Origin: an uncultured Acidobacteriota bacterium | GTDB lineage: Bacteria; Acidobacteriota; Thermoanaerobaculia; Gp7-AA8 | DNA length: 64,000 nt | Direction of reading: 5' to 3' | Assembly (NCBI GenBank): GCA_963822445.1 | Contig: CAWGHO010000003.1 | Location: 96,001 to 160,000, forward strand | Part shown: positions 19,480 through 30,280 of the stretch, piece by piece | Numbering within the stretch: the first letter of the stretch is position 1 | How the letters are laid out: every line of letters starts with the position of its first letter | Notes under the pieces: model-generated | Databases searched by the model: none | The model's input: the letters and a program-made list of their open reading frames with translations, nothing else | Told to the model about the DNA's origin: nothing | Translations under genes and position numbers: made by a program

Positions 19480-20262
19480 CTAGCTTTCCAGGCGGAAATT
19501 GATGGTCAGGTTGTAGTACACCGGCACGGGATTGCCGTTCATCGTGCCCGGTTTGAATTTCCAGCGTTTGATCGCCGAAAGCGCCTCGGCTTCGAGGCCC
19601 ATCGGCAGCCCCTTCAGGATTCGCGCCTCGGTCACATTGCCCTGGCGGTCGATGACCGCTTCGACGATGACGATGCCCTGGATGCGGGCCTTGCGCGCGA
19701 TCTCGGTGTAGCGGGGATCGATGCGCTCGATGATCACCGGCGGTTTCACGTTCCCGCCCACGCGCACCGGCGAGTCACCGGTTCCGCCGATCTGGCCGCC
19801 GAGCTGTCCGCCCAGCGTACCGCCGAGCGTTCCACCGACGACGCCGCCCACGACGCCGCCGACCACGCCGCCTTTGACACCGCCGACCACACCGCCCTCG
19901 ACACCGGCGCCTTCATCCTCGGACGAGACCTCGGCGACCTCGGGCAGGTTCTTCGGCACTTCGCTCGGTTGCCGGAACTCGGGCTGCTTGACCTGCTCGA
20001 CCGGCGTCTGCACCTGTTTGGGACGCGTCGCGCCGGAACTGGATGCGGGCGGTGGCGGAGGAGGCGGCGGTGGCGGAGCCGAGGTCACGATGAAAGCGCT
20101 GATCGGCTTTTCGATGATCTCGGGGTTCTCTTTGACGTAGATCCCCGCCGCGATGATCGCGCCGACCACGCCAACGTGTAAGACCAGCGAGATCAGTGCT
20201 GTGATCCAGCCGCCTTTTTGTTTGTCTTTTCCAGCGGACTCGATGAGTACGTCATCGAACAT
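19480..20262 (-). CDS. tonB: TonB family energy transducer
   Basis: TM anchor with SxxxH, Pro-rich linker, GGVVGG repeats, TonB_C (YTEIARKARIQG...WKFKP). Confidence 0.9.
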   Translation of the reverse strand: MFDDVLIESAGKDKQKGGWITALISLVLHVGVVGAIIAAGIYVKENPEIIEKPISAFIVTSAPPPPPPPPPPASSSGATRPKQVQTPVEQVKQPEFRQPSEVPKNLPEVAEVSSEDEGAGVEGGVVGGVKGGVVGGVVGGVVGGTLGGTLGGQLGGQIGGTGDSPVRVGGNVKPPVIIERIDPRYTEIARKARIQGIVIVEAVIDRQGNVTEARILKGLPMGLEAEALSAIKRWKFKPGTMNGNPVPVYYNLTINFRLES

Positions 20263-20411
20263 CGTCGTCCCCCTGCGGAGCGTTCAACGGACTCTGCTGA
20301 TGTAGTGCCAAGGTGGTCATGGATCGTTGGAACCGGGGTGGGAAGCACGGGAAACCGCGTTTGCACGAACGTCACCGAGGCGCGCGATACGATGCTTTCA
20401 CGGAGGAGCCG

Positions 20412-21392
20412 ATGCAACAACGCGCGCTTGGAACGGCAGGGTTACGCGTCTCGGCGATGGGCCTCGGATGCATGGGCATGTCCGAGTTCTACGGCACATC
20501 CAGCGAGTCCGAGGGCATCGACACGATCCGCCGCGCGCTCGATCTCGGGGTCACGTTCCTCGACACCGCCGACATGTACGGACCCTTCACGAACGAGAAG
20601 CTCGTCGGCAGGGCGATCCGCGATCGCCGCGATGAAGTCGTGGTGGCGACGAAGTTCGGGAACATGCGCGGCGAAGACGGCGCGTTCCTCGGCGTCAACG
20701 GCAGTCCTGACTACGTTGGCAAGGCCTGCGACGCATCGCTGCAGCGTCTCGGCATCGACGTCATCGATCTCTATTACCAGCATCGCGTCGATACGAAGAC
20801 TCCTATCGAAGAGACGGTCGGTGCGATGTCCGAGCTCGTGCGCGCGGGCAAGGTGCGTTACCTCGGATTGTCCGAGGCGGCGCCGGCGACGATCAGGCGT
20901 GCGCAGAAAGTTCATCCCATCAGCGCGCTGCAGACCGAGTACTCGCTCTGGAGTCGCGATCCGGAAGACGAGATCCTGTCGACGGTTCGCGAGCTCGGCA
21001 TCGGATTCGTCGCCTACAGCCCGCTCGGCCGCGGGTTTCTCACCGGCCGATTCAAGTCGCCGGACGATCTCGATCCCGCTGATTACCGCCGCCGCTCGCC
21101 GCGCTTTCAGGGCGAGAACTTCGCGAAGAACCTCGACCTCGTGGAGAAGATCGAAGAGATTGCGCGCGAGAAAGGCGTCACTGCATCGCAGCTCGCACTG
21201 GCCTGGGTGCTGCGGCGGGGCGACGACATCGTTCCGATTCCGGGAACGCGACACGTGAAGTATCTGGAGGAAAACCTGCGCGCTCTGGACATCGAGTTGA
21301 CCGCGGATGACCTGCGCCGCATCGACGAGGTCGCGCCGAAAGGCGTCGCCGCGGGGGATCGCTATCCGGACATGAGCACGGTCAACCGCTGA
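20412..21392 (+). CDS. Aldo/keto reductase
   Basis: [38 protein letters not shown]; start at ATG 20412 after GGAGGAG. Confidence 0.95.
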
Positions 21393-22625
21393 TCAGCCGC
21401 CGCAGGCCCGCGCGCGGATCTCGGCATCGATCCGGTGCCGCCCCTCGGTCCAGGTCTTGAGGAACGCCCGCCACATCGCTCGCGTGTTCGTGACGATGGC
21501 CAGCTCGAAATCGGCGGCCTCCTGCCGACAGCGGCGCGCCGCGTCGTGACGCATCGAGAGCGGATGATCGGCGAGGTACTGATCCCAGGCCGCCGTCGTG
21601 CCCATTTCCCAGGCGCGCTCGAAATCGGCCGGCTCGTCTTCGTTGCGATCGCGGATCGTCGAGTCGAGATCGAGCGCCGTCGTTTCCGGCATCTCCGTGG
21701 CCACGGTCTTTTCCGGTCCGCGGCGCATCCGCGAGACGTCGTTGCGAGTGAGCGTTCCCGGCGATGCAGTCAGGAAGTTGCGCAGCGTCGCCGCGAACTC
21801 ACTCGCATCGCTGAAACGGCGGCGGCGATCCTTCTCCAGTGCGCGGAAGATCACTGTCTCGATTTCCGGCGCGGCCACGCCCGGCTTCGCGTCGATGAAC
21901 GGCGGCGGCGGCTCGGTGAGGTGTTTCATGATGTAGCCCTGCGGCGTTTCGCTGACGAACGGCGGCACGCCGAGGAGCATCTCGTAGAGGACGACGCCGA
22001 GGCAGTACAGGTCGGCGCGGCCATCGAGGGCTTCCCCTTCGCCGAGCAATCCGAATTGCTCGGGGGACATGTACTTCGGATTGCCCATCAGCGCGCCGGC
22101 CTGGGTCATCCCTTCCGACGCGGTGTCCTTGGCGATGCCGAGGTCGATGATCTTGGCGATGAGGCGATCGTCGGCGTCATACGAAAGCATCACGTTGTCC
22201 GGGGATACGTCGCGATGCAACAGACCGCGGCGATGGATGTGCTCGAGACCGGCGAGGACCTGCGAAGCGATGTCCGCGGCGACGGGCAGGGGACAGGGGC
22301 CGTTGTTCGTGCACCACTGCCTGATCGTTTTGCCGTCGATGAACTCCGAGACCATGTAGCTGCCGCCGTCGCCGACGAAGAAGTCATGCACGACGGCGAT
22401 GTTCGGATGATGGATCTGGGTGGCGAGGCGCGCCTCCCGGAGGAAGCGCGCCTTGAAGCTGTCGTCGGCCATCAGGGTCTGGCGCATGACCTTGATGCAG
22501 CGCGGCACGTCGAGATGGAGGTGGCGGGCCTTGAAGACCTCGCCCATGCCGCCGCCGCCGAGGCGGCTGATGATCTCGTACTTGCCGTCGAGAATCGTAC
22601 CGGGGCGCACGCTGTCACTGGCCAT
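21393..22625 (-). CDS. Hanks-type Ser/Thr protein kinase
   Basis: LGGGGMGEV, HRDVSPDN, DLGIA, YMSPEQ. Confidence 0.92.
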   Translation of the reverse strand: MASDSVRPGTILDGKYEIISRLGGGGMGEVFKARHLHLDVPRCIKVMRQTLMADDSFKARFLREARLATQIHHPNIAVVHDFFVGDGGSYMVSEFIDGKTIRQWCTNNGPCPLPVAADIASQVLAGLEHIHRRGLLHRDVSPDNVMLSYDADDRLIAKIIDLGIAKDTASEGMTQAGALMGNPKYMSPEQFGLLGEGEALDGRADLYCLGVVLYEMLLGVPPFVSETPQGYIMKHLTEPPPPFIDAKPGVAAPEIETVIFRALEKDRRRRFSDASEFAATLRNFLTASPGTLTRNDVSRMRRGPEKTVATEMPETTALDLDSTIRDRNEDEPADFERAWEMGTTAAWDQYLADHPLSMRHDAARRCRQEAADFELAIVTNTRAMWRAFLKTWTEGRHRIDAEIRARACGG

Positions 22626-22667
22626 GGGTTGGAAGCGAACAGCATACGCCCCGGCGGCGCGCGACGA

Positions 22668-23093
22668 TTACGCCTTGGCTTCGATCTCTTTGCGCAAGCG
22701 CTCTTCCTGCGCGCGCGCTTCGGGCGTGAATTCCTCGCCAAAATCCTCGGCCTCGAAGATCGGGCGCAACTCGACCTCGCTGTCGCCGCCGTCCGTATTC
22801 GGGATGCGCTTCGCCCACTCGATCGCCTCATCCATCGACTTCACCTTCCACAGCCAGAAGCCGGCGATGAGCTCGTTCGTGGCGGAGAACGGGCCGGGGA
22901 CCACTTGCGGCGCGCCGCTGCCGAAGCGGACGCGGTAGCCCTTCGAGCTCGGATGCAGCCCCTCGCCGGCGGTCATGATTCCGGCTTTCACCAGCTCTTC
23001 GTTGTAGTTGCCCATCTCCGTCAGGAGCTTCTCGCTGGGCATGACACCATTCTCGGAATCCTTGTTCGCTTTCACGATCACCATCACTCGCAT
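22668..23093 (-). CDS. YciI family (DGPF-type) protein
   Basis: GEGLHPSSKG, GPF...ELIAGFW, EAIEWAKR, ELRP. Confidence 0.88.
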   Translation of the reverse strand: MRVMVIVKANKDSENGVMPSEKLLTEMGNYNEELVKAGIMTAGEGLHPSSKGYRVRFGSGAPQVVPGPFSATNELIAGFWLWKVKSMDEAIEWAKRIPNTDGGDSEVELRPIFEAEDFGEEFTPEARAQEERLRKEIEAKA

Positions 23094-23120
23094 GTGCGTT
23101 TCTCCTTCTATTGATTGATG

Positions 23121-23543
23121 TCAGCCCATGAAGGGAATGCGGCCGCCGTTGACGATCCAGTTCGTGCCGTAACGGTCGACGACCATGCCGAATCCCTCCG
23201 CCCAGAACGCTTTTTCGAAGGGCATGGTCACCTTCCCGCCTTCGCTGAGCGCGTCGAATACTCGGCGTCCGTCCTCGACCTTTTCGTAAGTGAGCGCGAG
23301 ACTGACGCCCTCCATCGGCTTGTACGTTCCGACGAGCGCGTCGCCGGCCATCAGCTCCGTGCCGCCGAAGGTGAGGTAGGCGTGCATGATCCGATCCTCG
23401 TTGCCCGGGGGACAGTGTTCGGCGACGGGAGTCTGGGCGTTGGTGAGCAGGGCCTCGAGCTTGCCGTCCAGGACCCGTTCGTAAAACCGCATGGCCTCGG
23501 CACAGTTGCCGTCGAATGAGAGGTAAGGGGTGAGTTGCGTCAT
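23121..23543 (-). CDS. VOC/PhnB family protein
   Basis: PYLSFDGNCAEAMRFY, IMHA, FWAEGFGMVVDRYG. Confidence 0.88.
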   Translation of the reverse strand: MTQLTPYLSFDGNCAEAMRFYERVLDGKLEALLTNAQTPVAEHCPPGNEDRIMHAYLTFGGTELMAGDALVGTYKPMEGVSLALTYEKVEDGRRVFDALSEGGKVTMPFEKAFWAEGFGMVVDRYGTNWIVNGGRIPFMG

Positions 23544-23569
23544 GTCATTTCCTTTCGTTTCAATGTGAC

Positions 23570-23635
23570 GATCCCAATTTAGTATCAATTAGTCCTAAAA
23601 AGCAACTACTAAGTTTGACTCTAGGACGAGACCGG
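23570..23635. promoter_or_regulatory. AT-rich divergent promoter with putative HxlR operator boxes
   Basis: TAGT-N11-ACTA palindrome (TAGTCCTAAAAAGCAACTA) and a related inverted copy, between the divergent phnB-like and hxlR-like genes. Confidence 0.35.
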
Positions 23636-23649
23636 CCTAAACTTCATTC

Positions 23650-24309
23650 ATGGCAACGAAGCGGACCTACGAAGATGGATGCGCGACGGCCCACGCCCTC
23701 GACCTCATCGGCGAGCGCTGGGCCCTGCTGATCGTTCGCGAGCTGATCCTCGGTCCGAAGCGGTTCACCGATCTGCGAACCGGCCTGCCGAGCATCAGTC
23801 CGAACGTCCTCACCCAGCGGCTGGAAGACCTCGAACAGTCGGGCATCCTCCGCCGCCGCAAGCTCGCCCCGCCCGCCGCGGCCTGGGTTTACGAGCTGAC
23901 CGAGTGGGGCCTGGAACTGGAGAAGGTGATCATGGCCATCGGCCGCTGGGGCGCGCGCTCACCTCAATTGATGCAGGGTCATCCTTTGAGTATCGATGCG
24001 CTGGTGCTGTCGTTCCGGACGATGTTCGATTCCCAGACCGCCGCCGATTTCAACGCGCGCCTCGAGCTGCGCATCGGCGAGGATCGCTTCCACGCCGAGA
24101 TCGCGAACGGCGAGATGCAACTGAATCGCGGCCCGGCCGACCGCCCCGACGCGATCGTCGAGGCGTCACCCGAAGCGCTCATCGCGGTCGCTTATGGCGG
24201 AAAGAAACTCGCCGAAGCCGTGCGGGAGGGGGAGATGAAAGTCGAGGGCGACAAGGCCGTCGCGAAGCGGTTTTTCGGGCTGTTCCCGTTGCCGGCTCCG
24301 GCTGGCTAA
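23650..24309 (+). CDS. HxlR family wHTH regulator with C-terminal SCP2-like domain
   Basis: ALDLIGERWALLIVREL...RFTDL...YELTEWG; C-terminal KVEGD. Confidence 0.9.
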   Translation: MATKRTYEDGCATAHALDLIGERWALLIVRELILGPKRFTDLRTGLPSISPNVLTQRLEDLEQSGILRRRKLAPPAAAWVYELTEWGLELEKVIMAIGRWGARSPQLMQGHPLSIDALVLSFRTMFDSQTAADFNARLELRIGEDRFHAEIANGEMQLNRGPADRPDAIVEASPEALIAVAYGGKKLAEAVREGEMKVEGDKAVAKRFFGLFPLPAPAG

Positions 24310-24355
24310 AGGGAACGACGAGAGCGCCTCCGGACATCTGAGCCTTCCTGTCAAG

Positions 24356-25600
24356 TCAGGCGGCAGCGTTGGCGAGGGTTGAGCCTCGCATAGCGAGCTG
24401 CTGCAGATAGCGAGCTTCGTCGTAAGCGGTGCGGCTGGTCCAGCAGGCGTAAAGTATGCGGATCCAACGGTAAGCGAGTGTGCGGATGGCCTGGTGGTGG
24501 CTATGTCCACGCGCACCCTGCTGTTTGTAGAGCGCTCGAGCCCAGACCGAGTAGCCGATCGAGACTCGTGCGTACTCGTGGAAGGTCTGACGCAGGAACT
24601 TCGGACAGGCCCAGCGCATGTGCACGACCGCCGTTTTGCCGCTCCGGCGGAGAACCGGGGCGATGCCGCTTCGGGTGGCGACGTTGACGGCGCTGCCGAA
24701 GCGCTTGCGATCGGTCCCGAAGGCGGCGGCGAGCCGCGGCGCGAGCTGTTGGCCGGCGCCAGGGAAGCTCGCGAAGATCGACGCGTCCTGGTGGGCGGCG
24801 AACGCCGCCGAGATCTTCTGGTCGTACGTGGCGATGCTCGCGTTGAGGGCCCGGATCTGCGCAACCTCGCTTCCGATCAGCAGCACGGCAGCGTCAGTGG
24901 TGACCTGATCGTCGTGGAACGCGACCTCTGAACGGATCTCGGCGAGCTTCTGGTCGATCCACGCGGCCGCGTGATGATGACCCGCATAGAACCTCCGTAT
25001 CGCGGACGGCCGAGCCCTTTGGATGGCCTCGAGCGTCGGCCAGCGTTCGAGGAAGTCACAGGCCTGCGCCGTAATCAACGCGCCGGCCCACCGGAGCGCC
25101 TGCGGGTAGTACGTCTTGAGCCGATCGGTCATGCGTTGGACGTGTTGCGTCCTCTGATCGACGAGCTCCCGCCGATCCTCGGTCAGAAGCCGCAGCAGAC
25201 GCGTAGAAGCGTCGTCGGCGATGAACGGGCGCAGCTCGTTGCGGTGCTTACGGAGCAGGTCGAGCAAGGACGCCGCGTCGGTCGGATCGTCTTTCGATAG
25301 GCTCGGATGAAACGCCTCACGATACCGGGCTGCACTGCGTGGGTTGATCGGATACAACGTGACGAACGGATAGCCGCTGAGCGCGTCGAAGACCGCGCCG
25401 CGGGACTGCTCGATGGCCACGGCGATCGGTGCCCCGCCGAAGCGCGCCTGCAGCGCTTCGATCCATGCGCGCAGAGCCGCAGGCGTGTGCTCGATGCGCT
25501 CGTTCGTGCACGTCTGCTGCTGCTCGTCCCAAAGAGCCACTTCGTGCGATGTGTCACCCCAATCCAGCCCCACAAACGCCCCAAACTCGAACTCGCTCAT
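24356..25600 (-). CDS. IS110 family transposase/recombinase
   Basis: GLDWG, AIEQ, KDDPTDA (DEDD); SFPGAG and GIAPVLRRSG (Transposase_20 with conserved Ser); ATG 25600 after GGAGGG. Confidence 0.93.
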   Translation of the reverse strand: MSEFEFGAFVGLDWGDTSHEVALWDEQQQTCTNERIEHTPAALRAWIEALQARFGGAPIAVAIEQSRGAVFDALSGYPFVTLYPINPRSAARYREAFHPSLSKDDPTDAASLLDLLRKHRNELRPFIADDASTRLLRLLTEDRRELVDQRTQHVQRMTDRLKTYYPQALRWAGALITAQACDFLERWPTLEAIQRARPSAIRRFYAGHHHAAAWIDQKLAEIRSEVAFHDDQVTTDAAVLLIGSEVAQIRALNASIATYDQKISAAFAAHQDASIFASFPGAGQQLAPRLAAAFGTDRKRFGSAVNVATRSGIAPVLRRSGKTAVVHMRWACPKFLRQTFHEYARVSIGYSVWARALYKQQGARGHSHHQAIRTLAYRWIRILYACWTSRTAYDEARYLQQLAMRGSTLANAAA

Positions 25601-25614
25601 CACACCCTCCCTTC

Positions 25615-25865
25615 GGGTTGGCTTTGGCCGTGCGCAAGGCCTATAGTCGAGTCGTGCTCCGACAGCATCTGAGAATGCGTTTCGGGCCAAAGCACTTCGT
25701 CCCGCTCGAAAGTCCGGAGGGATTCGTCGATCCGAACACGGGCGGAATTCGTAGCGGGACGAACCCTTCTTCTTAGTATCGCGCCGTCTGAACTCGGTTC
25801 TCCTGATCGCCACGCAACGGGTACTTCTCTGAGGGCTGAGGGAGAAGCGGAGAGACGGCCGGACA
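25615..25865 (-). ncRNA. Putative bridge RNA of the IS110 element
   Basis: Two stem-closed internal loops carry segments matching the target site (GCCCG, CCTCCGG) and the donor junction (CTCAGATG, CTATAGG); ends approximate. Confidence 0.75.
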
Positions 25866-26007
25866 AGCTATAGGCGGGCCGGCACGGCCGGCAGCGCTGG
25901 TGTTCGCGTGAACGCAATCCGCGCTAGCTACCGCGAGTTCCGCAGAAGGCACAACCAGCGCCTGCCGGCCCGTGGCCGGCCCGCCGGAGGCGCTCTCGTC
26001 GTTCCCT

Positions 26008-27855
26008 TCAGCGATACCCAGCAGCCTGCAACTCGAACAGCTCCGCGTACCGCCCGCCGGCCGCGAGAAGCTCCTCGTGGGTCCCCGCGGCCTCGATCTG
26101 CCCCTCGGCCAGCACCAGGATCCGGTCGGCCATGCGCACGCTCGAGAAGCGGTGGGAGATCAGCACCGCTGTCTTCCCCACGCTCAGCTCGCGGAAGCGC
26201 TGGAACACCTCGAACTCCGCGCGGGCATCGAGCGCGGCGGTCGGCTCGTCGAGGATCAGCAGTTGCGCGTCGCGCATGTAGGCGCGGGCGATGGCAATCT
26301 TCTGCCATTCGCCGCCGGACAGATCGACGCCGCTGCGAAAGCGCTTGCCGATCGTCTGGTCGTAGCGCTGCGGCAGGCGCTCGATCACCTCGTCGGCGAG
26401 ACTGCGTTCAGCAGCCTGCTCGATCCGTTTGCGATCGCCGACTGCCTCGATGCGGCCCACGGCGATGTTCTCCGCGGCGGTCATGTGATAGCGGACGAAG
26501 TCCTGGAAGATCACGCCGATGTTCGCGCGGAGCGACTCCAGGTCGTAGTCGCGGAGATCGTGGCCGTCCAGCAGGATTCGCCCCTCATCCGGGTCATACA
26601 AACGGGCCAGCAATTTCACCAGCGTCGTTTTTCCGGCGCCGTTCTCACCGACCAGCGCGAGCACCTCGTCCGCGTGCAGCGTGAATGAGAGATTGCGCAC
26701 CGCCCACCGTTCCGCGCCGGGATAGCGAAAGCCCACGCCCTCGAAACGAACCCCTTCGCGCATCGGCTTCGGGAACGGAATCGCGTTCGGCTTCGTGACG
26801 ATCTCCGGCTCGATGAGAAAGAACGAGAAGAGATCATCGAGATAGAGCGCCTGTCCGGCCAGTTGCGAGAAGCCCGAGAGCAAGCCTTCCAGCAACGTGC
26901 GCAACCGGCGGAACGAGCCCGCCAGGAACGTCAGGTCGCCGATCGTGAATTCGTTGCGGAGCGTGCCCCAGGCCAGGTAGCCGTACGCGACGTAGTAGCC
27001 AAGCGTGCCGACCGCGGTGAGCACGCTGCCCCAGAACGCGCGTCGCGTCGCCAGCGAACGGTTCGCCTGATAGAACGCGTCGGCCAGCCGGCGATATCGC
27101 TCGATCAGAAACGCGTTGAGGCCGAAGATCTTCACTTCCTTCGCCGTCTCCACGCTCGCGCCGGTCTGGCGCACGTAATCGAGCTCGCGCCGCTCCGGCG
27201 TGCGCGTGTAGTTCAGCGTGTAGCTCGCGGCGTTGAAGTGCGCTTCGCCGAGGAATGCGGGGATGAGGGCGATGGCGAGGAGAAGGATCAGCCAGGGCGC
27301 GTAGGCGACGAGGCCGATGGCGAAGGCGATGATGGTGATGACGTCCTGGGCCTGGCTCAGAAGCTGAGTCATCAGAGAGCTGCGGCCCATCGTCTGCCGC
27401 CGGGCGCGCTCGAGCTGATCCTGCAGCTCGCTGTCCTCGAAATCCTCGAGGTCGAGCGTCGCCGCATGCTCCATCAGGCGGATGCTCGTCTCGTTCGTGA
27501 AGCGCTCCGAGAGCAACGAGTCGACCAGCGAGACCACGCGGCCGATCACGTCTGAGAGCACGGCGATTCCGAACTCGAGCGCAACCAGCATGGCCAGGCG
27601 GTCGAGCCTTCCCGAGTCCCACCACGCCCGCAGATTCGCGGGATTTCCCGTGCTTGAGGCGAGCGCGATCACCTCGTCGATGATCAGTTTCCCGAGAAAG
27701 AGCATCGCCACCGGCAGGACCGCGCGCATCAGGCGCAGCGACGCGTTGGCGATGGTGAGCGAAGGGCTGGTCTCCCAGATCAGGCGGAGAAAGGGCGGGA
27801 GGTTGCGGAGCGCGCCGAGGCGCTCGCGGAAGGAGTGTTGCGGCTTCACCACCAT
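26008..27855 (-). CDS. ABC transporter fused permease/ATP-binding protein
   Basis: TM domain, GENGAGKTT, LSGGEWQ, LILDEPT, ISHR. Confidence 0.93.
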   Translation of the reverse strand: MVVKPQHSFRERLGALRNLPPFLRLIWETSPSLTIANASLRLMRAVLPVAMLFLGKLIIDEVIALASSTGNPANLRAWWDSGRLDRLAMLVALEFGIAVLSDVIGRVVSLVDSLLSERFTNETSIRLMEHAATLDLEDFEDSELQDQLERARRQTMGRSSLMTQLLSQAQDVITIIAFAIGLVAYAPWLILLLAIALIPAFLGEAHFNAASYTLNYTRTPERRELDYVRQTGASVETAKEVKIFGLNAFLIERYRRLADAFYQANRSLATRRAFWGSVLTAVGTLGYYVAYGYLAWGTLRNEFTIGDLTFLAGSFRRLRTLLEGLLSGFSQLAGQALYLDDLFSFFLIEPEIVTKPNAIPFPKPMREGVRFEGVGFRYPGAERWAVRNLSFTLHADEVLALVGENGAGKTTLVKLLARLYDPDEGRILLDGHDLRDYDLESLRANIGVIFQDFVRYHMTAAENIAVGRIEAVGDRKRIEQAAERSLADEVIERLPQRYDQTIGKRFRSGVDLSGGEWQKIAIARAYMRDAQLLILDEPTAALDARAEFEVFQRFRELSVGKTAVLISHRFSSVRMADRILVLAEGQIEAAGTHEELLAAGGRYAELFELQAAGYR

Positions 27856-28946
27856 TTTGCCCGTGCTGGCTGCGTGCCGTGCGGCTCCACGAATTCACCG
27901 AGTTTGGGGACGATGAGCTGCACGCCGGCTTTCGCCGCGGCGGCGACCGCGCGATCGGGCGGGTCGGGCCATGCGTGAAATCCGAGGTTGAATGTCGCCC
28001 AGTGCACGGGCAGCATCACCCGGCCGCCGACGTCGCGATGCGTCTGAATCGCCTCCTCGGGGCTCATGTGGATCTCGATCCAGGTCGGATCCGAGGCGCC
28101 GATCTTGATCAGCGTCAGATCGAATGGACCATGCGCCGCGCCGATCGCTTTGAATTGATCCGTGTAGCCGCTGTCGCCGCTGAAGAAGAAGCGGTTGCGC
28201 GGCCCCTTCACGACCCACGTCGCCCAGAGCGTCCGATTATTGAGTCGCGGATTGCGCCCGCTGTAGTGCCTCGCCGGCGTCGCGGTGAAGGTGAGGCCGC
28301 GGAGCGCGAAGCTCTCGTTCCAATCGAGCTCGTGGATCTGTGCGATCGGCGTTCCCCATCGCTCCAGATGCGCGCCGATGCCTAGCGGTACGACGAAGTG
28401 CGTGCCGCGAGCGGTGAGCGCGCGGACGACCGGCATGTCGAGGTGATCGTAGTGGTCGTGGGAAATGATCACCGCGTCGATCGGGGGCAGTTCATCGACC
28501 GCGATCGGCGGCGCGTGAAACCGTTTCGGACCGATCAGCGTCGATGGCGAACAGCGATTGCTCCAGACCGGGTCGGTGAGTACCTTCGCGCCGTCGATTT
28601 CCACCAGGACGGACGACCAGCCCATCCACGTCGCGCGCAATCCTGACGCAGGTGGCGTGGCGTAATCGCTCGTCGTTTTGCGCAGCACCGGAACCGGTGC
28701 GACAGGCTCGCGTTGCTCATCGCCGAAGAACTGCCGGCGAAACATTTCGCGATTGGAGGTGCGGTTCGCCCCGCGCGGCTCGCGATTGCGGAACGCGCCA
28801 TCGGCCCATTGCGGTGAACGTTGCGCGCGAGCGAGCCTCGCGCCTTCCAGCCTGCCGCCCAGCGAGACCAGCCATTCGGTCGAGTAGAGAAGAACGACGA
28901 CGATCACGACGAGCAGGAGGGCGATGACGAGCAGCGCGCGCTTCAT
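27846..28946 (-). CDS. MBL-fold metallohydrolase (RomA/NAPE-PLD-like)
   Basis: ISHDHYDHLD, TPARHYSGR, FSGDSGY, PVHW. Confidence 0.9.
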   Translation of the reverse strand: MKRALLVIALLLVVIVVVLLYSTEWLVSLGGRLEGARLARAQRSPQWADGAFRNREPRGANRTSNREMFRRQFFGDEQREPVAPVPVLRKTTSDYATPPASGLRATWMGWSSVLVEIDGAKVLTDPVWSNRCSPSTLIGPKRFHAPPIAVDELPPIDAVIISHDHYDHLDMPVVRALTARGTHFVVPLGIGAHLERWGTPIAQIHELDWNESFALRGLTFTATPARHYSGRNPRLNNRTLWATWVVKGPRNRFFFSGDSGYTDQFKAIGAAHGPFDLTLIKIGASDPTWIEIHMSPEEAIQTHRDVGGRVMLPVHWATFNLGFHAWPDPPDRAVAAAAKAGVQLIVPKLGEFVEPHGTQPARAKWW

Positions 28947-29069
28947 CGCCTCATCCTCTCCGACTTCTCGCGAAATGCCTCACGAAAAGTCGCGAAAACG
29001 GATCGGCTCTCGATCGCGTCATCGACCGTAACCATCGCCAAATCAGCAGTTTGTCTCATCTGGCCCCCA

Positions 29070-29084
29070 TGGCAGGCCGCTTGT
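29070..29084 (+). promoter_or_regulatory. Putative sigma54 promoter of the chemosensory operon
   Basis: TGGCAG-GCCGC-TTGT (imperfect -12 box); IHF-like AATCAGCAGTTTG just upstream; AAGGAGG RBS downstream. Confidence 0.45.
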
Positions 29085-29111
29085 TCTAGAGCAGCCCGAC
29101 AAGGAGGCAAC

Positions 29112-29495
29112 ATGAGGCGTAAGAAGATCCTGCTGGTCGACGATTCGGCCACCACGCTGATGATGGAGCAGATGGTGCTCCGCGGTCAGGCGTACCAGAT
29201 TGTGACCGCGAAAAACGGGCGGGAGGCGGTTGCCACGGCGGCCAGCGAGCGTCCCGACCTGATCCTGCTCGATGTGGTCATGCCGGAGATGAACGGCTTC
29301 GAGGCCTGCCGTCTCATCCGCCAGGAGCCTGACACGAAGAGCGTGCCGATCATCATGGTCACGACGAAGGGCGAAGAGCACAACGTCGAGACCGGATTCC
29401 AGAGCGGCTGCAGCGACTACATCACCAAGCCGATCAACGGCGCCGAGTTGCTGACGAAGATCCGCAGCTACCTCGATGACGGGGGTGCGGCATGA
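29112..29495 (+). CDS. Single-domain response regulator (CheY-like)
   Basis: ILLVDD, LLDVVMP, TTK, KP. Confidence 0.9.
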   Translation: MRRKKILLVDDSATTLMMEQMVLRGQAYQIVTAKNGREAVATAASERPDLILLDVVMPEMNGFEACRLIRQEPDTKSVPIIMVTTKGEEHNVETGFQSGCSDYITKPINGAELLTKIRSYLDDGGAA

Positions 29496-30280
29496 GCGGT
29501 CGCGACGACAACGCCGGCGGCAACTACGTCCAGAAGGTGCGCGAAGACACGAACCGCATCCTTTCGGACCTCAAGAGCAACAACGAGCGGTTGCGCTCCA
29601 TCGTGGCCGCGCTCGAAAGCGATCGCTCGCGCCTGCAGGCCGAGAAGATGCGCCTCCAGGAGCAGCTCATGAACGCCCGCGAGAGCCTCGCCCAACGCGT
29701 CGACGACCACAACGCGCTCATGCGCCGCCTCTCCGAAGTGCAGGACGAGAACGAGTCGGTGGCCGGCCGTTTCCTGGAGATCGAGACCCAGAACACCAAC
29801 CTCGCCAATCTCTACGTCGCCGGCTACCAGTTGCACGGCAGCCTCGATCGCGACCTCGTGCTCGCCGCGATCAAGGAGATCGTGATCAACCTCATCGGCT
29901 CGGAAGACTTCGCGATCTTCGAGCGCGAAGGCGAAGACCGGCTGCGGATGATCGACTGGTTCGACGAGCCGCCGCAGATGGCGCGAGAGGTCCGTTTCGG
30001 CGAGGGAATCATCGGACAGGTCGCCGCGACCGGCGAGGCGTTCGTGTCGAACGGCGAGCATGGCCGCGGAGTCGGAATGACTGCATGCGTTCCGCTGAAG
30101 GTCGACGGCCGAGTCACCGGCGCGATCGCGATCTTCCGCCTGCTCCCGCAGAAGCACGACGGACTGGAAGCCCTCGACGAAGAGCTCCTCGGTCTGCTCG
30201 CGAGCCAGGCCGGCATCGCGCTGTATTGCACGACCCTGCATCGCGTCGTGGCCGAGCAACGGCGTCCGGCGGGAGTGTGA
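29492..30280 (+). CDS. Coiled-coil plus GAF domain protein
   Basis: N-terminal heptads; GEGIIGQVAATG, CVPLKVDGRVTGAI. Confidence 0.75.
   Translation: MSGRDDNAGGNYVQKVREDTNRILSDLKSNNERLRSIVAALESDRSRLQAEKMRLQEQLMNARESLAQRVDDHNALMRRLSEVQDENESVAGRFLEIETQNTNLANLYVAGYQLHGSLDRDLVLAAIKEIVINLIGSEDFAIFEREGEDRLRMIDWFDEPPQMAREVRFGEGIIGQVAATGEAFVSNGEHGRGVGMTACVPLKVDGRVTGAIAIFRLLPQKHDGLEALDEELLGLLASQAGIALYCTTLHRVVAEQRRPAGV

What the first reader, a model, noticed from the sequence alone, without database searches (positions are those of the whole stretch)
25615..25865. IS110 bridge RNA with target and donor guides readable by eye
Seen, on the minus strand. Target-binding loop: closing stem TTCGTCCCGCT/AGCGGGACGAA (25696-25706 with 25753-25763), containing TTCCGCCCG-TG, an inner hairpin and CCTCCGG (25714-25720). 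The reconstructed target is GCCGGCCCG-CC-GGAGG, so the left guide matches 6/9 and the right guide is the exact 7-nt reverse complement. Donor-binding loop: closing stem GCTTTGGCC/GGCCAAAGC (25621-25629 with 25685-25693), containing CTCAGATGC-TG, a hairpin and CTATAGG (25640-25646). The reconstructed circle junction is CTCAGATGT-CC-TATAG, so the left guide matches 8/9 and the right guide is an exact 7-nt complement. Known: this is the architecture of IS621-type bridge RNAs. Inference: a natural programmable recombinase with a CC core rather than the CT of IS621, whose left guides both end in UG instead of spelling the core.
Basis: partly seen in the sequence, partly recalled or inferred. Interest (0 to 1): 0.8.

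Follow-up and report, generated by a model that had tools for sequence, protein, structure and literature searches.

The report
Bridge RNA of a CC-core IS110
The stretch is the guide ("bridge") RNA gene of a jumping gene of the IS110 family, readable and well supported by comparison with relatives, and it is an ordinary member of a recently described kind except that it recombines at CC rather than CT.

Summary
Window 25872-24334 (minus strand) is a 1539-bp IS110-family element flanked by CC. It has 9 full copies in the genome, all at ...CCG-CC-GGAGGC inside a REP-like palindrome.

Its left end carries two stem-closed internal loops. In 34 orthologues the stems covary: 90.5% of cells are paired against 36-46% when slid, and 22 of 28 pairs show compensatory changes.

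The 3' sides of the loops spell the reverse complement of core+5 nt of the target (CCUCCGG) and of the donor (CUAUAGG). Across 17 distinct right target guides the cognate match averages 6.5 of 7, against 3.3 for non-cognate pairs. Handshake dinucleotides and a junction promoter (TTGACA-17-TATAGC) are also present.

So the bridge-RNA reading is supported, though no RNA data exist.

The "UG instead of the core" point holds for this copy but does not define the group. In 14 CC-core relatives the last two left-target-guide positions read TG, CC, TT, GC or CA. The G in the donor loop is invariant in all 34 sequences, so it is scaffold.

CC is one of six RDG-spelled cores in this clade (CC, CT, TT, AT, AA, GT).

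Verdict: a new member of a known kind, of moderate interest.

The parts
24334..25872 (-). Body of the IS110-family element (1539 bp), from TATAGC... to ...CTCAGATGT
   Evidence: 9 full copies in the genome share these ends exactly.
25873..25874 (-). Core CC at the left junction
   Evidence: Present in 9 of 9 copies.
24332..24333 (-). Core CC at the right junction
   Evidence: Present in 9 of 9 copies.
25875..25883 (-). Left target GCCGGCCCG in the host REP-like repeat
   Evidence: The left flanks are GCCGGCCCG in 6 copies and GGCCGCCCG in 3.
24327..24331 (-). Right target GGAGG
   Evidence: 9 of 9 copies.
25696..25763 (-). Target-binding loop module. Outer stem 25763-25753 with 25706-25696. 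Inner closing helix CGAA 25751-25748 with UUCG 25710-25707. Inner hairpin UUCG-GAUCGA-CGAA 25736-25723.
   Evidence: Helix 1 has 15 pairs, 13 of them with changes on both sides.
25737..25746 (-). Left target guide UCCGCCCG (25746-25739), followed by UG (25738-25737)
   Evidence: It matches the left target at 6 of 8 (this site) or 7 of 8. Its register is fixed by homology with L016 and L092, whose guides spell GGCCCG+CC.
25714..25720 (-). Right target guide CCUCCGG
   Evidence: Exact reverse complement of CC+GGAGG.
25712..25713 (-). Handshake dinucleotide AC of the target loop
   Evidence: Complementary to donor positions 7 and 6 (T24334, G24335) and not to the cognate target positions 7 and 6.
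25621..25693 (-). Donor-binding loop module. Outer stem 25693-25685 with 25629-25621. Inner closing helix CGCA 25679-25676 with UGCG 25636-25633.
   Evidence: At columns 108/162 the pair is A-U in 18 and C-G in 16 sequences, with none broken.
25663..25673 (-). Left donor guide CUCAGAUG (25673-25666), then C, U and the invariant G25663
   Evidence: 8 of 8 identity to the right end 24342-24335. The 3 nt after CUCAG covary with the right end in orthologues. The G is invariant in 34 of 34 sequences.
25640..25646 (-). Right donor guide CUAUAGG
   Evidence: Exact reverse complement of CC+TATAG. Its core-reading bases agree with the left-junction core in 23 of 26 loci.
25638..25639 (-). Handshake dinucleotide CC of the donor loop
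   Evidence: The first C is complementary to target position 7 (G25875). The same rule holds in 18 of 23 distinct elements.
24349..24354 (-). TTGACA, the -35 half of the junction promoter, in the right end
   Evidence: In the circle it lies 17 nt from TATAGC. An equivalent hexamer 16-18 nt from the -10 box is found in 27 of 27 loci.
25867..25872 (-). TATAGC, the first bases of the left end, serving as the -10 half of the junction promoter and as the right donor
24356..25600 (-). Recombinase gene, 414 aa, with D13, E64, D105, D108 and S320
   Evidence: Pfam PF01548 and PF02371. NCBIfam NF033542 at 143.2 bits against a cut-off of 140. Motifs conserved in orthologues.
25978..25990 (+). Second, unoccupied target site (GGCCCG-CC-GGAGG) in the other arm of the same REP-like palindrome

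Best explanation
This is the bridge-RNA gene of an active IS110-group insertion sequence.

Shown:
- The element is bounded by CC.
- It sits only in sites reading (G/C)CCG(G/C)CCCG-CC-GGAGGC of a REP-like palindrome.
- It carries an IS110-type DEDD/Ser recombinase gene.
- Upstream of that gene are two stem-closed internal loops whose helices covary across distant relatives.
- The loop sequences track the flanking host DNA (first loop) and the element's own ends (second loop).

Inferred by analogy with IS621:
1. Excision joins the right and left ends through one CC. This builds a TTGACA-17-TATAGC promoter that transcribes the left end from about 25860 to at least 25621.
2. The RNA binds the recombinase.
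3. [quoted passage not shown]
4. In the second loop CUCAGAUG and CUAUAGG do the same on the circle junction.
5. After top-strand exchange, the dinucleotides AC and CC next to the right guides pair with position 7 (and 6) of the partner DNA.

In this lineage the core is read by the two right guides only. The left guides pair with positions 1-7. At core position 8 they form at most a U-G wobble (both loops read U there). Position 9 is not read.
For: Copies and sites:
- There are 9 full copies, all with CC at both ends and the same flanks.
- Three copies at different loci are identical to each other, and two others are identical to each other. All nine carry the same loops, which argues for recent transposition with this RNA.
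- From the first base of the target-loop stem to the last base of the donor-loop stem (143 nt), one column varies among the 9 copies. Element-wide, the window copy differs from the other 8 at 55 positions.

Stem covariation in 34 sequences:
- 28 pairs, 22 with changes on both sides.
- 90.5% of cells are paired, against 68.4% when shuffled (0 of 500 shuffles reach it) and 35.7-46.0% when slid.
- Covariation score 0.572 against 0.186.

Guides against flanks:
- Right target guide against right flank, 17 distinct guides: 7/7 in 10, 6/7 in 6, 5/7 in 1. The 272 non-cognate pairs average 3.34, with 4.0% at 6 or more.
- 5' side of the first loop against the left flank: the longest identical run averages 6.6 in 23 elements, against 3.4 in 506 non-cognate pairs.
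- The core spelled by the right donor guide equals the left-junction core in 23 of 26 loci.
- L097, a 65%-identical relative with the same ends and the same CC core, sits in a different site (GAGTAACG-CC-GGCTA). Its guides match that site at 8/8 and 7/7.

Handshake:
- The donor-loop base pairs with target position 7 in 18 of 23 elements. Non-cognate pairs do so in 32%, and 0 of 20,000 permutations reach the observed count.
- The target-loop base pairs with donor position 7 in 19 of 23.

Junction promoter: present in 27 of 27 loci.

Site use: all 9 insertions are in sites with 0-1 mismatch to CCGCCCG (50 further sites of this class are empty). None is in the 62 sites with 2 or more mismatches that share CCG-CC-GGAGG.

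Protein: Pfam and NCBIfam IS110 models match, and the catalytic D, E, D, D and S are conserved.

Architecture of IS621 bridge RNAs, handshake guides and junction promoter: taken from passages of PMC11208160 and PMC11208158.
Against: - No RNA evidence exists. No listed sequencing run is on record as RNA, so transcription, RNA ends and protein binding are untested.
- Folding energy is not better than shuffles (z = -1.17, with 24 of 200 shuffles as good).
- No Rfam family matches.
- At this copy's own site the left target guide matches only 6 of 9, and neither left guide spells the CC core. IS621 strongly prefers pairing to both strands of the core (PMC11208160, passages).
- The recombinase is only remotely similar to the solved bridge recombinases: ISCro4 E = 3e-4, IS621 E = 9e-3, Tnp domain only.
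- In my guide-flank table the core offset in the right end was chosen as the best of five offsets. The same procedure was applied to the non-cognate control.
- The REP context is confounded with left-target match in the site census.
- No minus-strand sigma-70-like promoter was found in the integrated copy. Expression would therefore depend on the circle or on read-through.
Confidence: 0.9

Rival explanations
1. The repeats act as DNA, not RNA. The sequences in the left end that resemble the element's ends would be subterminal protein-binding repeats recognised by the transposase, and the hairpins would be incidental.
For: CTATAGG is an inverted copy of the left terminus and CTCAGATG is a direct copy of the right terminus. 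Subterminal repeats are known in the IS1111 group (PMC11208160, section 12). No RNA has been observed.
Against: The first loop matches host flanks, not the element's ends. It changes with the insertion site across relatives, including L097. The helices keep pairing through compensatory changes, which is expected for RNA. The promoter built at the circle junction points into this region in 27 of 27 loci.
Confidence: 0.03
2. The structured left end is only a 5' untranslated regulatory leader of the transposase mRNA, controlling translation or stability. Its complementarity to the junctions would be a coincidence or a by-product of GC-rich palindromic targets.
For: The donor-loop stem ends 9-10 nt before the ribosome-binding site and about 20 nt before the ATG. 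No terminator-like site separates them. The target is itself partly palindromic, so the two sides of the first loop can pair with each other in the energy-minimum fold.
Against: Both exact 7-mers arise together in 26 of 200,000 shuffles. Guide-flank covariation across 17-23 independent elements and handshake covariation are not expected of a leader. A dual role (guide RNA processed from, or part of, the mRNA leader) is not excluded and would not contradict the main reading.
Confidence: 0.04
3. It is a real bridge RNA, but this particular copy is a decaying relic that no longer transposes. It diverges from the other eight copies, and its left guide fits its own site poorly.
For: The window copy differs from the consensus of the other 8 at 55 positions, 33 of them between element positions 1300 and 1500. 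The left guide matches its own site at 6 of 9.
Against: The reading frame is intact (414 aa) and the catalytic residues are present. Its loops are identical to those of the copies that are identical to each other at different loci. The only difference in the two-loop module is one unpaired base (A in the window copy, G in the others, at 25631).
Confidence: 0.15

Closest known systems
IS621 / IS622 (ISCro4) bridge recombinase with its bridge RNA (Durrant 2024, PMC11208160; Hiraizumi 2024, PMC11208158; Perry 2025 preprint; passages read)
   Same: - The RNA is encoded in the left end, upstream of a DEDD/Ser recombinase gene.
- The target loop comes first and the donor loop second.
- The left guides read like the top strand of the left half-sites.
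- The right guides are the reverse complement of the core plus the right half-site.
- A two-base handshake guide follows each right guide.
- The promoter is rebuilt across the circle junction.
- Insertion is into REP-type repeats.
- The core is two bases, duplicated at both ends.
   Different: - The core is CC, whereas in IS621 and its relatives the second core base T is described as almost invariant.
- The right guides are a full 7 nt in nature; IS621's natural right target guide is 4 nt.
- The left guides do not spell the core.
- The donor-loop position that would read core base 9 is an invariant G.
- The protein is 414 aa against 328-341 aa, and is only remotely similar (E = 3e-4 and 9e-3).
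- Nothing has been tested experimentally.
ISPpu10 of Pseudomonas putida (Na et al. 2026 preprint; abstract, section 7 and passages read)
   Same: An IS110 element with a bridge RNA. All insertions lie in one REP family. Target sites often occur as convergent pairs less than 200 bp apart. A GC-rich stem-loop overlaps the left target. Here 40 of 112 candidate sites lie in opposite-strand pairs less than 250 bp apart, and the repeat folds into a long hairpin.
   Different: ISPpu10 has a CT core. The role of the target stem-loop was shown by experiment there. Here it is only seen in the sequence, read by eye in the site list.
IS1111-group elements with a guide RNA in the right end (as described in PMC11208160, section 12)
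   Same: The same recombinase family and the same idea of an RNA that pairs with target and donor.
   Different: Here the left end is long (272 nt) and the right end short (22 nt), and the RNA lies in the left end. That places the element in the IS110 group.

Membership tests
IS110 family, IS110 group insertion sequence | Recombinase with a RuvC-like DEDD domain (PF01548) and a Tnp domain (PF02371) carrying a conserved serine | tested here: met
   PF01548 E = 1.1e-28 and PF02371 E = 6.1e-11. NF033542 'IS110 family RNA-guided transposase' scores 143.2 bits against a cut-off of 140. D13, E64, D105, D108 and S320 are conserved in the orthologues with intact frames.
IS110 family, IS110 group insertion sequence | No long terminal inverted repeats, with a short core repeated at both junctions | tested here: met
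   CC lies on both sides in 9 of 9 copies. The ends TATAGC... and ...CAGATGT are not inverted repeats of each other.
IS110 family, IS110 group insertion sequence | Left non-coding end much longer than the right end | tested here: met
   The ORF starts at element position 273. The stop codon ends 22 nt before the right terminus.
IS110 family, IS110 group insertion sequence | Sequence-specific insertion, typically into repeats | tested here: met
   9 of 9 insertions lie in one site type within a REP-like palindrome.
IS110 family, IS110 group insertion sequence | Circular intermediate whose junction forms a promoter | tested here: inconclusive
   The sequence gives TTGACA-17-TATAGC, and the equivalent is found in 27 of 27 loci. 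No circle junction was seen: the runs laid were contigs only and showed no joints.
Bridge RNA (IS621 type) | Two internal loops, each closed by helices, in the left end | tested here: met
   Covariation in 34 sequences: 22 of 28 pairs compensatory, 90.5% of cells paired against 36-46% when slid.
Bridge RNA (IS621 type) | Right guides complementary to the top strand of core + right target and of core + right donor | tested here: met
   7/7 for both in the window. The cognate mean is 6.53/7 against 3.34. The core spelled by the right donor guide equals the left-junction core in 23 of 26 loci.
Bridge RNA (IS621 type) | Left guides identical to the top strand of the left target and left donor | tested here: met
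   Target: 6-7 of 8 at the 9 sites. Donor: 8 of 8. Cognate runs average 6.6 against 3.4 for non-cognate pairs.
Bridge RNA (IS621 type) | Left guides also pair with the core (the core is included in all four pairings in IS621) | tested here: not met
   The window has UG in both loops against the core CC. Relatives read TG, CC, TT, GC or CA in the target loop, and TG, AG or CG in the donor loop. The donor-loop G is invariant in 34 of 34 sequences.
Bridge RNA (IS621 type) | Handshake guides pairing with position 7 of the non-cognate DNA | tested here: met
   In the window, A pairs with donor T7 and C pairs with target G7. Across the clade the rule holds in 19 of 23 and 18 of 23 elements, with 0 of 20,000 permutations reaching the latter.
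Bridge RNA (IS621 type) | Transcribed, bound by the recombinase and required for recombination | not testable with these tools
   No RNA run was listed. No experiment exists.
Bridge RNA (IS621 type) | Match to a curated covariance model of the family | tested here: inconclusive
   No Rfam release 15 family matched at E up to 1 in window 20000-30000. I did not establish whether Rfam holds a bridge-RNA model, and the published model of Durrant et al. was not at hand.

The most novel reading that the evidence does not exclude
In this recombinase clade the two-base core may not be fixed by the protein. It would be set only by the two right guides, with pairing of the left guides to the core dispensable.

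Related elements use CC, CT, TT, AT, AA or GT as the RDG-spelled core with the same protein motifs around the catalytic glutamate. The left-guide core positions drift freely in an actively transposing lineage.

If so, this clade would be a natural bridge recombinase with a freely programmable core, including cores without T at the second position.
Probability: 0.35. Interest if true: 0.6.

Novelty: new member of a known kind. Interest (0 to 1): 0.4.

Why it matters
Bridge recombinases are being developed as programmable tools for DNA insertion, inversion and excision. The best studied ones work at CT (less well at GT, AT or TT) cores, which limits the sites they can address.

This element and its relatives show, from natural insertions alone, a lineage that uses CC. 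Its sister lineages use six RDG-spelled cores in all (CC, CT, TT, AT, AA, GT). They have full 7-nt right guides and left guides that need not read the core.

That gives concrete candidates and concrete design rules to test. It also documents a REP-like repeat family and its resident insertion sequence in a poorly studied soil lineage; the nearest relatives are Thermoanaerobaculia genome bins.

It does not reveal a new kind of system.

Tried and rejected
- Rfam scan of window 20000-30000 at E up to 1: no match on the element. The one match (Lacto-phage-1, E = 0.24, at 29819-29911) is unrelated and below its threshold.
- Folding energy of the left end against shuffles: not significant, so I did not use stability as evidence.
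- Sequencing runs: no RNA holder was listed. 20 soil or sediment DNA runs hold small shares.
- Laying four runs (contigs only) gave fragments of related elements at 90-99% likeness, with no joints, no empty site and no circle junction. This says nothing for or against expression or mobility.
- Alternative register in which UCCGCC would read positions 5-9 including the core: rejected.
- Idea that CCCG+UG reads the upstream tandem copy GCCGGCCCG-TG of the repeat: rejected. All 9 insertions are at CC, and the right guide fits only CC+GGAGG.
- Search for a protein determinant of the core near the catalytic glutamate (E-Q/L-x-R/K-G): the motif is the same in CC-, CT- and AT-core elements. I could not align this motif with IS621 residues A61 and G63, because the PDB alignment covered only residues 80-162 and 274-407.
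- Perfect-match sites are not significantly more occupied than one-mismatch sites: 3 of 11 against 6 of 48.
- Literature: a search for 'CC core' together with IS110, bridge RNA or core dinucleotide listed 25 of 52 papers, none holding that phrase. This is a weak search and does not show that CC cores are unpublished.
- Rows left out of A1: of the 72 loci, 33 were aligned with the window. Left out were repeated copies of one element in one genome, loci cut at the 5' side or matched only in part, and L038 and L041, whose extracted stretch did not hold both loops whole.
- Rows left out later: one search lists 27 elements with both junctions. L045, L051, L056 and L080 failed my right-end pattern and L062 failed my left-end pattern. 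L034 was dropped because the contig ends in the right flank. L095 was left out because its upstream region does not align.
- Error: my script rebuilt the empty site with the CC written twice. The BLAST and fold of that call are used only qualitatively.

Full report
WHAT IS THERE

On the minus strand, window 25872 to 24334 is a 1539-bp element that begins TATAGC and ends CTCAGATGT. It has CC on each side (25874-25873 and 24333-24332).

It encodes a 414-aa protein (25600-24356) that matches the two Pfam domains of IS110 transposases (PF01548 E = 1.1e-28, PF02371 E = 6.1e-11). It also reaches NCBIfam's 'IS110 family RNA-guided transposase' model, just above the cut-off (143.2 against 140 bits).

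To the solved bridge recombinases it is only remotely similar: ISCro4 E = 3e-4 and IS621 E = 9e-3, in the Tnp domain only. The catalytic D13, E64, D105, D108 and S320 are present and are conserved in relatives with intact frames.

The left non-coding end is 272 nt and the right end 22 nt. This is the layout of the IS110 group (PMC11208160, section 12).

COPIES AND SITES

The window's genome (three contigs, 6.0 Mb, 64.5% G+C) holds 9 full copies, plus pieces at two further places.

All 9 copies have CC at both ends. All have a left flank ending CCCG and a right flank beginning GGAGGC. The nine-base left target is GCCGGCCCG in six copies and GGCCGCCCG in three.

Three copies at different loci are identical to one another, and two more are identical to each other. 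The window copy differs from the consensus of the other 8 at 55 positions, 33 of them near the 3' end of the gene.

From the first base of the target-loop stem to the last base of the donor-loop stem (143 nt), only one column varies among the nine copies. It is an unpaired base, A25631 in the window and G in the others.

The target lies in a REP-like palindrome of about 160 bp between two convergent genes: an ABC transporter at 27855-26008 (-) and an HxlR-type regulator at 23650-24309 (+). The repeat occurs dozens of times. Each unit carries the site once on each strand. The second site of this unit is empty (25978-25990, +).

Of 121 sites reading CCG-CC-GGAGG (112 empty, 9 occupied), all 9 insertions are among the 59 whose positions 1-7 differ from CCGCCCG at no more than one place. 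None is among the 62 with two or more differences. This census is confounded with membership of the repeat family.

THE RNA

A closer reading shows that each loop is closed by a second short helix: CGAA/UUCG for the first loop and CGCA/UGCG for the second.

I collected 72 loci from one-genome-per-species contigs. The nearest are Thermoanaerobaculia bins at 82-89% protein identity. Next come Vicinamibacterales at about 52%, then Blastocatellia, Planctomycetota and gammaproteobacteria at about 40-50%.

I aligned 33 of them with the window. The rows left out are listed under Tried and rejected.

RNAalifold recovers both loops. Of its 28 pairs, 22 keep pairing through changes on both sides. Counting on that structure gives:
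- 90.5% of cells paired, against 68.4% in shuffles (0 of 500 reach it) and 35.7-46.0% when the partners are slid;
- a covariation score of 0.572 against 0.186.

The structure was derived from this same alignment, which favours it somewhat. Still, single pairs such as columns 108/162 (A-U in 18, C-G in 16, none broken) are hard to explain otherwise.

The folding energy alone is not remarkable (z = -1.17).

GUIDES

In both loops the 3' side has the same layout, read 5' to 3': seven bases, two bases, one base, then the closing helix.

In the window the seven bases are CCUCCGG and CUAUAGG. They are the exact reverse complements of CC+GGAGG (right junction) and CC+TATAG (left junction).

For 27 elements I could read both junctions from the stored loci.
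- Among 17 distinct right target guides the cognate match is 7/7 in 10, 6/7 in 6 and 5/7 in 1. The 272 non-cognate pairings average 3.34.
- The core bases spelled by the right donor guide equal the left-junction core in 23 of 26 loci. They take six values: CC, CT, TT, AT, AA and GT.
- The 5' side of the first loop shares an identical run averaging 6.6 nt with the cognate left flank, against 3.4 for non-cognate pairs.
- The three bases after the conserved CUCAG of the second loop change together with the right end: ATG, GTG, AC-, GG-, AGG.

A scan of metagenome contigs added ten relatives at 81-87% identity and one at 65%. The 65% relative, L097, has the same ends and the same CC core but sits in GAGTAACG-CC-GGCTA. 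Its loop reads GAGUAACG and UAGCCGG, matching at 8/8 and 7/7. This is a natural retargeting.

HANDSHAKE AND PROMOTER

The two bases after each right guide behave like the handshake guides defined for IS621 (PMC11208158, passages).

In the window, AC after the right target guide is complementary to donor positions 7 and 6 (T, G) and not to the target's own. The first C after the right donor guide is complementary to target position 7 (G).

Across 23 distinct elements the donor-loop base pairs with target position 7 in 18. Non-cognate pairs do so in 32%, and 0 of 20,000 permutations reach 18. The target-loop base pairs with donor position 7 in 19.

Joining the right end to the left end through one CC gives TTGACA, 17 nt, TATAGC. 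A TTG-type hexamer 16-18 nt from the TATAG-type start of the left end is present in 27 of 27 loci.

In the integrated copy no sigma-70-like site on the minus strand was found. This fits the weak expression from integrated IS621 reported in the abstract of PMC13626964.

THE 'UG' QUESTION

Homology fixes the register. L016 and L092 are alignable base for base with the window and read GGCCCG+CC, which spells the core.

Among 14 relatives of at least 65% identity, all with a CC core, the two positions read TG (7), CC (3), TT (2), GC (1) and CA (1).

The first of the two is U or C in 13 of 14, so it can still pair or wobble with the bottom-strand G. The second can pair in only 6 of 14 (my count from the table).

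In the donor loop the pair reads TG (8), AG (4) or CG (2). Its G is invariant in all 34 aligned sequences whatever the core. It probably closes the inner hairpin against the equally invariant C that starts CUAUA; that pairing is my reading, not a test.

The element with UG has identical copies at different loci. Reading the core with the left guides therefore seems unnecessary here. This differs from the strong preference reported for IS621 (PMC11208160, passages).

COMPARISON AND VERDICT

The finding works like an IS621-type bridge RNA in every testable respect but one (the left guides do not read the core). It belongs to an IS110-group element.

Bridge RNAs were predicted in 85.7% of catalogued IS110-group elements, with diverse structures (PMC11208160, section 12). 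The existence of one here is therefore expected.

What is less usual:
- The core is CC. For IS621 and related orthologues the second core base T is called almost invariant and is read by the protein backbone (PMC11208158, passages).
- The core varies within one clade.
- The right guides are a full seven bases in nature.

I found no paper with the phrase 'CC core' among those listed for IS110 and bridge RNA.

I rate it a new member of a known kind, interest 0.4.

Noticed in passing
window 26012-25875 and 24333-24305 (minus strand), with the empty site at 25978-25990 (+): A REP-like palindrome of about 160 bp lies between two convergent genes. Rebuilt without the element it folds into one long hairpin (-154.7 kcal/mol). 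My rebuild carried the CC twice. BLAST finds dozens of copies in the genome. Each unit has the insertion site on both strands.
   Followed up: partly
Site list, for example G000 C1 and C2 sites: Just 5' of and overlapping the left target, most sites read GCCGGCC-CGT-GGCCGGC. This could form a 7-bp stem-loop, like the target stem-loop reported for ISPpu10. It is also a tandem repeat of GCCGGCCCG. Read by eye only.
   Followed up: no
L012, L014 and L010 (G000 C3 469288-470843); L011 and L013 (G000 C1 940355-941433): Two rearranged copies. One has an internal segment of about 165 bp inverted. The other consists of two right-end fragments meeting head to head at one base. They could be recombination products or assembly artefacts.
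   Followed up: no
window 24334-24570 (element positions 1300-1500): 33 of the 55 differences between the window copy and the other eight copies cluster in the last 250 bp of the recombinase gene. This suggests a mosaic of two subfamilies.
   Followed up: no
L031, L043, L044, L049, L050: In several orthologues the cores at the two junctions differ in the first base: TT left and AT right, CT and GT, AA and GA. The left-junction core is always the one spelled by the right donor guide. In L031 the right-junction core is also the one spelled by the right target guide. This is as if donor and target cores need not be identical.
   Followed up: partly
L097 (metagenome contig, 65% protein identity): A relative with the same ends and the same CC core but a different target, GAGTAACG-CC-GGCTA. 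Both target guides are changed to match (8/8 and 7/7).
   Followed up: yes
window 25618-25647 (+): A promoter-like site, TTGGCT-18-TATAGT, lies antisense to the donor loop. It is the only sigma-70-like match in 24250-26050. It is probably a by-product of the CUAUA guide.
   Followed up: no
window 23679-24341 (+): A mechanical ORF runs through the repeat arm and stops inside the element's right end. The likely real gene is the HxlR-type ORF at 23650-24309, which stops before the repeat.
   Followed up: partly
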